Origin: Chrysomallon squamiferum
Lineage: Eukaryota; Animalia; Mollusca
DNA length: 64,000 nucleotides
NCBI GenBank assembly: GCA_012295275.1
Contig: CM022679.1
Span: forward strand, 4,402,001-4,466,000
Reading direction: 5' to 3'
Part shown: piece by piece, positions 24,801-48,498 of the stretch
Layout: each line of letters starts with the position of its first letter
Position numbering within the stretch: the stretch's first letter is position 1
Program-made: the position numbers and the translations under genes
Notes under the pieces: generated by a model
The model's input: the letters and a program-made list of their open reading frames with translations, nothing else
What the model was told of the DNA's origin: nothing
Database searches by the model: none

Positions 24801-27800
24801 CAGTAAAGTTGTGTTTGACTGCTGGGAGAGAAATCTCCATGGGAATCGACCTTTCAAAATGTATTCTTTTCACTTGTATTTGTTCATGAAAAGTTAAAAA
24901 CGAAAGGCTATACACACTTCTCGGTATATTAATTGTTATTTATTATTCTTTTTGTACGCGTGATATAAAACAACTCAAAGAATGGCAAGATTTACGTGTT
25001 TGAACCACACACACACACACACACACACACACACACACACACACACACACACAAAAGGTTTCTTTGCTTGTAGATTTAATCTATTTTATTGAGACCAATC
25101 AATGAAATTACTACGTCTGATGCACAAAAACCTCGGAGCCAGATGACTGATTTCAGTATATCCTACGATCAAATTATGGCGAACGGGAAAAACGTCCTTG
25201 AAATGCAAGATAAAACTCGGTGCATAATTACACTGTAAATTATGAGGTTCTGTTTTGTCCTGTGAATAACATCCGACTTTAATTTAATTATTTATTTCAT
25301 TCAGAAAAAGAAAGTAGCATACAAAAAAAAAAAAAAAAAAAAAAAAAAAAAGTCTAAACATGATTGTTATGTAACTCAAAAATGTACTTGTGTACACTGA
25401 AAAGACCAACAGAATTTTTTTTTTTTTTTTTTTTTGTAAAAGTATGTTCCATCCGTGAAAACTTTAGACATACAGAAACTTTTTTTTTTTTTTGGTTCTT
25501 ACATTTTCAAAAGAAAAGAAAAAAAAGCAGAAAAGATTAATTTAAGTGTTAATGTCAGAAAAATTTGAAAGACTGATAAGAAAAAGTAAGAACTGGTTGA
25601 AAAATAATGATGTATGTTTGCTTTGATTTGTTAGTCTTAATGTGTTCAAAGGCATTTTTTTAAAAATGTTCAAACGATGTAATTATATTTTTTCTCAGCT
25701 TCCTGTCCTCATTTATCTTTTTTCTCTTCTTCCTTTCGTTCGCTTTTCCATCTTTTCTATTTATTTTCTATTCATTTATCATTTCATCATATTTTCTCGA
25801 AATGACATCAGTACGTTTTATTTATCATCATCATCTTCTTCTTCTTCTTCTTTTTTCTTCTTGTTCTTGAACACCAAGTCACATGATTTTTCTTGTTCTT
25901 TATTTTAATCTTCTCTTCCTCTTATTTCAACAAAACTACTTCGTTTTCTCTTCAGTTTTCTTCTAACTGTAGGTATGTATATATGTATGTATGTATGCAT
26001 GTCTGCATTTTTGTTTGTTTCTGTATATATGTGTGTATATATGTATTTACACACACACACAATCACACACACACACACACAAACTCACACACACAAACAC
26101 ACACACACGTGTATGTATGTATATTTAAATTTCAGATCGCTATAGCAACACTGAAAAAAAAATAATAATAAAAGCCTCTATGACACAAAATATTTGAAAA
26201 TACACGAATAAATTAAACTCAGTCTCTGTAGACGTAGGACACACAGATAAAGTTATACAAACATACTTCTAAAATATGATAATAATACTGATAATAACAA
26301 CAATAATAATAATAATAATAACAATAATACTAATAATAATAACAATAATAATAATAATGACAATAATACTAATAATAATAGCAATAATAATAATAATAAC
26401 AATAATAATAATAATAGCAATAATAATACTAATAATACTAATAATAATAATGATAATAATAATAACAATAATAATAATACTAATAGCAAAAGCAGCAGCG
26501 TCTAGTTCTTGCACATTCAGGCGGGTATGCAAGAAATATGGGAAGTCAAAATGCAGGCTATTTATAGAACATTTTCTTTCTTTCAGCACATTTTCGTGGG
26601 AAGTAAAACTCGGCCCACCTAAAACTTTGTACTCAACTATCTAGATCCCCTCTGTTTAATTGTGTGCACACGCGCCTGAAATTTCAGCTAATATATATCT
26701 GATATCTACCTATAGCTTACCTGTTGGGTTGAATGACCAAGCCACTATAGATATAAGAACGATATAAGTTCGACCGGTTGCCATCACAGTAGAATCCATT
26801 TGTGTGTTTGCAGCTTGCATTAAGAAAAAACTGGTATTAATTGAACATAAACGTTTAACCTTCTGTCATCATTTATCAGCGTCTCAGTCAATATGTCTTC
26901 ATACTGTTTTTTTCTCTTTTTTTTTGTTGTCTTTATGAACGTCTCTCTTGTGTGTTACCTCGAGTGTTTCCTTGATGTTGAAAGTTTGGTTTCAGTAAAG
27001 TTAAGAATTAAAAAATATGAGTCAGTTATCCTTTGAGAATTATGTTTTTGTTTATGAACTTAGGTTTTGTTTTTGATGAAGTAACAGTAATTCAGAAATG
27101 TTTTAAAACTGTTTTGAAACTATTTAGATATATCCTCTCTGTCTGACAGTTATTATCGACTGCATGTGTGATGACATCCAGGAAAAACACAACGAGAAGA
27201 TATTGTTATAACAACTACAAAGTATTCTCAGAACAACACAGCTAAGAAAACGAAGACTTGATCATTCTTGGCTTTCGATCTCATTATCGGAAACTCCTGT
27301 CACTGATTAGCTACAAACCAATCACTGGCGTTTAAAAACATTGACAGAGAGATCGATTATTGAGTATATTTTGCCTTTTAACACTTCTAAAACTGCTGTT
27401 TATAAACAAGTCATTATTTAGTCAAAGATCAGCAAATTTTAGTTCTTGAAAGAGCTGATTGTTATCTGATAAATTAACACGTAACTGATTCAAAAGTTCA
27501 CAAAAAAGATTTTCCAATACAACATTACATCTCTTTTGTGTTTTAAAAGTTTCAGTTTCCAATTCTATCGTGTGTTTTTTTTTCAGCTGTCTGAGACTTA
27601 GAAACGATAACGTCCAAGTAAATTTGTTCTAATGCGAATCGCAAACCACGGATCAACAGCTGCAGACACAACCCTACACACACATGACCAGCACTGTACA
27701 ATTACTGCAGCAGGCGTCGAGAGGACAGTCTCTCACATACAACACATCGTGGCTGTGGTAGTTCGAGGTCTGCCGTCGATACGCGCCGATAGCCAAAACG

Positions 27801-48498: not shown

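What the first reader, a model, noticed from the sequence alone, without database searches (positions are those of the whole stretch)
26721..48498. Two unrelated alternative signal-peptide exons 21.7 kb apart feeding one receptor body
Seen: exon 2 needs a phase-1 upstream exon supplying a signal peptide, and two candidates fit. 48498-48447 encodes [18 protein letters not shown] (donor GTGAGT) and 26799-26721 encodes [27 protein letters not shown] (donor CAG|GTAAGC). Both start with ATG, have a basic-then-hydrophobic layout, and join in frame as ...G-TAE-MSDEK. They share no obvious similarity, and neither is in the ORF track. Inference: alternative promoters give different N-termini on essentially the same mature chloride-channel subunit, allowing cell-type-specific expression. 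I do not know of this being described for this clade.
Basis: partly seen in the sequence, partly recalled or inferred. Interest (0 to 1): 0.7.

Follow-up and report, generated by a model that had tools for sequence, protein, structure and literature searches.

The report
Swappable signal exons, snail chloride receptor
This snail gene for a predicted acetylcholine-gated chloride channel carries two unrelated signal-peptide exons, both matched in a related snail, and most molluscan counterparts of this one gene (but not its neighbouring paralogues) show the same set-up, which likely lets separate promoters make the same mature channel in different cells.

Summary
Observation confirmed, with one correction. 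The minus-strand gene encodes an anion-type nicotinic receptor alpha subunit in the clade of Lymnaea LnAChR B; its nearest relative is in Gigantopelta aegis (89% over the body). Both proposed exons are conserved. Of 635 possible ATG-to-donor mini-frames upstream of exon 2, the 48498 exon best matches the Gigantopelta RefSeq isoform X2 N-terminus (8/18 identical), and the 26721-donor exon best matches isoform X1 (10/23). The conserved start of the second exon is ATG 26784, not 26799. The arrangement is typical of this orthogroup: 19 of 28 molluscan B-type RefSeq genes have two or more different hydrophobic leaders at this junction, as do 3 of 3 related brachiopod, nemertean and bryozoan genes, against 0 of 28 paralogue genes (few independent lineages). 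A possible third exon lies at 57833-57779. No RNA of this species covered the junctions, so use in this animal, the promoters and cell-type specificity are inferred. The mechanism is known from human GABRB3 exons 1/1A; I found no paper describing it for these invertebrate receptors. It is real and moderately interesting, but not a new kind of system.

The parts
48447..48498 (-). Signal-peptide exon 1a, coding part (18 aa, phase-1 donor TTG|GTGAGT); counterpart of the Gigantopelta isoform X2 leader
   Evidence: best of 635 candidates against XP_041364592, 8/18 identical
48499..48737 (-). Putative 5' UTR of exon 1a, starting at an acceptor-like site (pyrimidine tract then TAG at 48737); holds 7 upstream ATGs, all closed before the main ATG
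   Evidence: sequence; its use as an exon boundary is inferred
26721..26784 (-). Signal-peptide exon 1b, coding part (22 aa from ATG 26784; in-frame upstream ATGs at 26799 and 26820; phase-1 donor CAG|GTAAGC); counterpart of the Gigantopelta isoform X1 leader
   Evidence: best of 635 candidates against XP_041364591, 10/23 identical
57779..57833 (-). Candidate third signal-peptide exon 1c (acceptor 3 nt before ATG 57830, 18 aa, phase-1 donor ATG|GTAAGG); unconfirmed
   Evidence: weaker hydrophobic core (best 9-mer 1.7); no matching Gigantopelta isoform among the 3 read
14813..15006 (-). Exon 2, first shared exon; holds the predicted signal cleavage site and the start of the ligand-binding domain
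   Evidence: (59/64 identical to Gigantopelta)
14121..14230 (-). Exon 3, ligand-binding domain
12925..13382 (-). Exon 4: Cys-loop, loop C with vicinal cysteines, M1 and the Pro-Ala-Lys linker
11308..11394 (-). Exon 5, M2
   Evidence: (28/28)
10421..10536 (-). Exon 6, M3
   Evidence: (38/38)
9406..9876 (-). Exon 7, intracellular loop, M4 and stop

Best explanation
The window holds one gene for a predicted chloride-conducting nicotinic receptor subunit with two conserved, unrelated signal-peptide exons, which are likely used one at a time from separate transcription starts and would give the same mature subunit. Shown: both exons, their phase-1 donors, open frames through the shared body, and a matching pair of leaders in Gigantopelta isoforms. 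Inferred: each exon is spliced to the acceptor at 15006 (introns of 33.4 and 11.7 kb); the signal is cut at the Gly-x-Ala site formed at the start of exon 2, so the mature chain is the same; each exon sits under its own promoter (1a probably behind a further non-coding exon); the purpose is independent control of where, when and how much of the inhibitory acetylcholine receptor is made. The exon sequences turn over quickly, while having several of them is kept in this orthogroup.
For: Exon-for-exon match to Gigantopelta X2 and X1, each rank 1 of 635, 0/20000 shuffles. Two or more hydrophobic leaders in 19 of 28 B-clade RefSeq genes and 3 of 3 non-mollusc genes, against 0 of 28 paralogue genes (leaders printed). 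Orthology: B clade 99/97, following species relationships. In oyster, both leader types occur as full-length proteins on Logan contigs of 2.1-2.5 kb, i.e. presumably spliced transcripts (P0214, P0217). Both leaders have a basic n-region and a hydrophobic core (best 9-mer 2.54 and 2.87) followed by the same small-residue site. Leader sequences are not detectably homologous beyond Gigantopelta, as expected if the removable peptide matters little and the regulatory start matters more. Precedent: GABRB3 exons 1 and 1A (PMC1934366 passages).
Against: No junction or start site has been observed in this species. RefSeq XP_ isoforms are computed models (that they rest on RNA-seq alignments is recalled, not checked here). 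Exon 1a has an acceptor-like site at 48737 and the candidate 1c one at 57833, which also fits splicing from one shared promoter. Nine of 28 B genes did not pass: four Mytilus species, Haliotis rubra and Ylistrum had only one isoform read; Biomphalaria's second leader is not hydrophobic; Ruditapes fell under the threshold; Mya was not parsed. In several relatives (venerid clams, Lineus, Haliotis X1) the alternative exons extend past the likely cleavage site, so the mature N-terminus is not always identical. No SignalP-type predictor was available; the cleavage site is read by the -3/-1 rule from recall.
Confidence: 0.62

Rival explanations
1. Both exons are real but are mutually exclusive internal exons chosen by splicing from one upstream non-coding exon and one promoter.
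For: Acceptor-like sites lie upstream of the ATG in 1a (48737, 12/15 pyrimidines) and 1c (57833). In several species one leader is encoded by two or three RefSeq accessions, which implies variable non-coding 5' exons.
Against: Exon 1b has only a weak acceptor candidate (8/15 pyrimidines at 26830) and an A-rich upstream stretch. The exons lie 21.6 kb apart with no shared sequence. No mechanism for mutual exclusion was seen.
Confidence: 0.18
2. The exons are kept for the peptides and UTRs themselves: different leaders tune translation, ER entry, assembly or surface delivery, or leave different residues on the mature chain.
For: Each leader is conserved about 44% to Gigantopelta with its length and basic/hydrophobic layout. 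1a carries 7 upstream ATGs. Venerid leaders add a segment with an N-glycosylation sequon after the hydrophobic core.
Against: No leader homology beyond the nearest relative. In this gene both leaders end at the same predicted cleavage site. This reading is not exclusive of the best explanation.
Confidence: 0.12
3. One of the two exons is a relic or is barely used in this species.
For: No transcript evidence for this species was obtained; Mytilus shows that one leader can suffice.
Against: Both exons keep ATG, frame, hydrophobic core and donor, and both match annotated isoforms of a relative whose body differs by 11%. A genomic run differing at about 2% of sites shows no change in exon 1b and none listed over 315 covered bases around it (post hoc, weak).
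Confidence: 0.08

Closest known systems
Lymnaea stagnalis LnAChR B (anion-selective nicotinic subunit) and its molluscan orthologues
   Same: Same clade as the Biomphalaria protein named 'subunit type B' and the Lymnaea, Aplysia and Octopus proteins; Pro-Ala linker, vicinal cysteines, PF02931 + PF02932.
   Different: Function is not measured here. Alternative signal exons are not mentioned in the passages I saw; the original paper (van Nierop 2005) was not available.
Human GABRB3 exons 1 and 1A
   Same: A Cys-loop chloride-channel subunit gene with two alternative first exons encoding dissimilar signal peptides, expressed differently by region and stage (PMC1934366, passages).
   Different: A GABA-A subunit, so most likely an independent origin. 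There both exons lie in one promoter region; here they are 21.6 kb apart, relatives have two to four or more, and differential expression is untested.
Gigantopelta aegis RefSeq isoforms XP_041364591 (X1) and XP_041364592 (X2)
   Same: The same two leaders at the same junction; body 89% identical.
   Different: Computed annotation labelled 'alpha-10-like'; no third leader is annotated among the 3 members read.
Clustered variable first exons (vertebrate protocadherin and UGT1 clusters; recalled, not tested)
   Same: Several alternative 5' exons spliced to one constant region; venerid clams show several related leader exons that look like tandem duplicates.
   Different: There the variable exon encodes the functional domain; here it encodes little more than a removable signal, so it diversifies control rather than binding.

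Membership tests
Nicotinic receptor alpha subunit | Ligand-binding and transmembrane domains of Cys-loop receptors | tested here: met
   PF02931 and PF02932 above their cut-offs; best solved relatives are alpha-7
Nicotinic receptor alpha subunit | YxCC vicinal cysteines in loop C (definition seen in PMC4055736) | tested here: met
Anion-selective nicotinic receptors (LnAChR B type) | Pro-Ala in place of Glu at the M1-M2 linker (PMC4055736) | tested here: met
   Pro-Ala-Lys at residue 266 of the 495-aa form
Anion-selective nicotinic receptors (LnAChR B type) | Groups with B subunits rather than with other anion-type paralogues | tested here: met
   12-row clade 99/97; 33-row clade SH-aLRT 97. 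The 'type B' label comes from database names of Biomphalaria proteins; the cloned LnAChR B record itself was not in hand
Anion-selective nicotinic receptors (LnAChR B type) | Acetylcholine-gated chloride current | not testable with these tools
   needs expression and reversal-potential measurement
GABRB3-type alternative signal-peptide first exons | Two dissimilar signal-like exons that join one shared exon in frame | tested here: met
GABRB3-type alternative signal-peptide first exons | Both junctions present in mRNA | tested here: inconclusive
   no RNA cover for this species; present in relatives' isoform models and in oyster short contigs
GABRB3-type alternative signal-peptide first exons | Separate promoters with differential expression | not testable with these tools
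   no start-site or tissue data

The most novel reading that the evidence does not exclude
The inhibitory (chloride) acetylcholine receptor gene of lophotrochozoans has kept, since before molluscs, brachiopods, nemerteans and bryozoans split, an array of two to five interchangeable signal-peptide exons. The exons are continually replaced or duplicated while the array persists, and it works as a set of cell-type-specific entry points for one channel; its duplicated paralogues lost it. This snail would have three such exons (57833-57779, 48498-48447, 26784-26721).
Probability: 0.4. Interest if true: 0.62.

Novelty: new variant of a known kind. Interest (0 to 1): 0.42.

Why it matters
Chloride-type acetylcholine responses are a classic feature of molluscan neurons (recalled). 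If one gene supplies that channel through several independently controlled leader exons, the exon junctions give isoform-specific probes to ask which neurons use which promoter in Aplysia, Lymnaea or Octopus, where the isoforms are already annotated. It is also a clear case of a gene architecture outlasting the sequences that make it up, and it parallels GABRB3. In practice, annotation or cloning that takes one leader misses the others. The gain is regulatory detail, not a new molecular mechanism.

Tried and rejected
No whole genome is held for the window, so 5' exons beyond 64000 and gene neighbours could not be examined. RNA: no RNA holder listed for 9400-15100 (a long, mostly intronic query, so a weak search). 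Nothing was laid on exon 2 from 4 of 4 runs, and the three RNA runs gave no cover on 26500-27900. These blanks are no evidence either way. Run X1 behaves as genomic DNA: one contig crosses the 1b donor without a joint. Homology of the window leaders to 25 leaders of more distant relatives was tested and mostly not found: 1a ranked 2nd against one Haliotis and one Lingula leader, and 1c ranked 1st against both Physella leaders; I treat these as composition effects. The fourth filter-passing donor (63236) lies in (TATG)n-like text with its hydrophobic stretch 19 residues from the cleavage site and was set aside. A second receptor gene in the window was looked for and not found (tblastn). No Rfam match. 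The relation of the brachiopod, nemertean and bryozoan genes to the B clade is unresolved in both trees; they may be co-orthologues of all molluscan anion-type genes. Two look-ups of earlier findings returned nothing. One search returned off-topic papers. The donor weight matrix and the hydropathy scale in my scripts are recalled values.

Full report
What is there. The window is AT-rich, microsatellite-rich animal DNA. On the minus strand six exons (15006-14813, 14230-14121, 13382-12925, 11394-11308, 10536-10421, 9876-9406) encode a Cys-loop receptor body; all introns are GT-AG. The largest exon hits PF02931 and PF02932 and, among solved structures, alpha-7 nicotinic receptors best. It has vicinal cysteines in loop C and Pro-Ala-Lys at the M1-M2 linker, the motif that PMC4055736 (passages) gives as the mark of anion-selective subunits, including those of Lymnaea. 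The closest full-length relatives are gastropod: Gigantopelta aegis at 86% over that exon and 418 of 469 residues over the body. In a 34-row tree the window protein is sister to Gigantopelta (100/100) inside a clade of octopus, bivalve and gastropod proteins (99/97) that includes the Biomphalaria protein named 'subunit type B'; a 77-row quick tree agrees. The organism is therefore inferred to be a gastropod near Gigantopelta, and the gene an orthologue of LnAChR B, which PMC4193815 (passages) describes as the anion-conducting group.

The observation. Exon 2 starts in phase 1 and lacks a signal peptide. Both proposed exons exist as described and give complete frames of 495 and 499 aa. The decisive test was conservation. 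Gigantopelta has two full-length RefSeq isoforms that share their last 477 residues and differ only in the leader. I scored all 635 ATG-to-GT phase-1 mini-frames (364 donors) in the 49 kb upstream of exon 2 against each leader. The X2 leader picked 48498-48447 (score 43; best other donor apart from a shorter form of the same exon 20; 8 of 18 identical). The X1 leader picked 26784-26721 (score 46; best other donor 17; 10 of 23 identical). No shuffle of 20000 reached either score. The two window exons score 0 against each other.

How general it is. Using cluster look-ups I read the RefSeq isoforms of 28 B-clade genes, 3 related non-molluscan genes and 28 genes of neighbouring anion-type paralogues. 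By a scripted count of distinct hydrophobic leaders, 19 of 28 B genes have two or more: two in most gastropods and oysters, three in Octopus and Pecten, four in Argopecten and Mercenaria. The count of three for Magallana gigas includes an allelic pair and is really two. Lingula, Lineus and Watersipora have 3, 4 and 3. None of the 28 paralogue genes has two. Limits: 6 of the B genes and 17 of the paralogue genes had only one isoform read; 18 of the paralogue genes are from four Haliotis species, so the control is about nine gene lineages; the script failed to parse Mya and the four scallop paralogues (by eye the latter share one N-terminus; Mya has two similar leaders); clusters were chosen by me from the 120 listed hits of 219; cation-type subunits were not sampled except one crustacean alpha-7 cluster (one N-terminus in 9 isoforms). 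XP_ records are models; that alternative models rest on RNA-seq is recalled. Independent support comes from oyster, where both leader types appear as full-length proteins on Logan contigs of 2.1-2.5 kb (P0214, P0217), presumably transcripts. Whether the non-molluscan genes are strict B orthologues is unresolved.

How it likely works. Each leader has a basic start and a hydrophobic core and ends in a glycine followed by Thr-Ala from exon 2; by the recalled -3/-1 rule the cut falls after that alanine for both, so the mature subunit would be the same. The choice of exon would then set where and how much subunit is made. Exon 1a has an acceptor-like site at 48737 and 7 upstream ATGs in the 239 nt before its start, so it probably lies behind a non-coding exon and may be translated under uORF control. 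Exon 1b has only a weak acceptor candidate and looks more like a true first exon. Separate promoters are the simplest reading but are not shown; splicing from one promoter remains possible. Leader sequences are not detectably related beyond Gigantopelta, which fits selection on having several regulated entry points more than on the peptides.

A third candidate. The filter that finds 1a and 1b also passes 57830-57779, which has a good acceptor 3 nt before its ATG and a phase-1 donor. Four donors pass in all, against 0.45 expected from shuffles and 1 on the opposite strand; two are the confirmed exons. Its hydrophobic core is weaker and Gigantopelta has no matching isoform among the 3 read. I put it at about 0.35.

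Expression in this species could not be tested (see Tried and rejected). A genomic run about 2% different from the window shows no listed change across 315 covered bases that include exon 1b and its upstream region (about 7 expected, noticed after the fact), a weak hint of constraint.

What is known. Human GABRB3 has two alternative first exons, 1 and 1A, encoding dissimilar signal peptides with different regional and developmental expression (PMC1934366, passages), so the mechanism is established within the superfamily. For invertebrate nicotinic receptors I found no description: searches gave 0 papers; two searches gave one off-topic listing each; some searches gave listings with none on this point by title and abstract start. 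The lophotrochozoan survey PMC6896357 has no occurrence of 'alternative', 'signal peptide', 'first exon' or 'isoform' in its main text (term search). PMC13174522 (passages) and PMC8414863 (passages) do not discuss it; their supplements were not read, and the former ran signal-peptide predictions that may bear on it. van Nierop 2005 was not available, and most subscription papers are outside the library, so absence from print is not established.

Verdict. It is a GABRB3-like arrangement already implicit in RefSeq models; the new element is that it appears to be a long-lived, orthogroup-specific feature of the B-type anion-selective subunit. New variant of a known kind; interest 0.42.

Noticed in passing
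window 57833-57779 (-): Candidate third signal-peptide exon with acceptor, ATG and phase-1 donor; no homologue found.
   Followed up: partly
window 48737-48499 (-): Seven upstream ATGs, each closed by a stop before the main start, in the putative UTR of exon 1a; possible translational control.
   Followed up: partly
P0039, P0183, P0184, P0186, P0187 (Mercenaria), P0185, P0188 (Ruditapes), P0047, P0256 (Mya): In these clams the alternative leaders resemble each other (five in Mercenaria by eye), suggesting tandem exon duplication; most venerid ones carry an N-x-S/T sequon after the hydrophobic core, so they may add a glycan to the mature N-terminus.
   Followed up: no
P0038, P0249, P0250, P0253 (Mytilus): Four mussel species show a single isoform and leader for the B gene, a possible loss of the array.
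   Followed up: no
P0198, P0200, P0229, P0018: Several models of anion-type subunits lack the short M2 exon (equivalent to window 11394-11308); a recurrent skipped form or an annotation artefact.
   Followed up: no
P0003, P0066, P0119; P0004, P0057; P0015, P0080: B-type genes and their paralogues share longest-contig lengths in Gigantopelta, Patella and Pomacea, hinting at a linked cluster; no second receptor gene lies in this window.
   Followed up: partly
window 15068-15319: A degenerate (ATG/CAT)n array just upstream of the exon 2 acceptor yields long acidic and Met-rich pseudo-ORFs; low-complexity intron sequence.
   Followed up: no
window 44479-44929: Intronic 41-bp minisatellite (about 7 copies plus a diverged set).
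   Followed up: no
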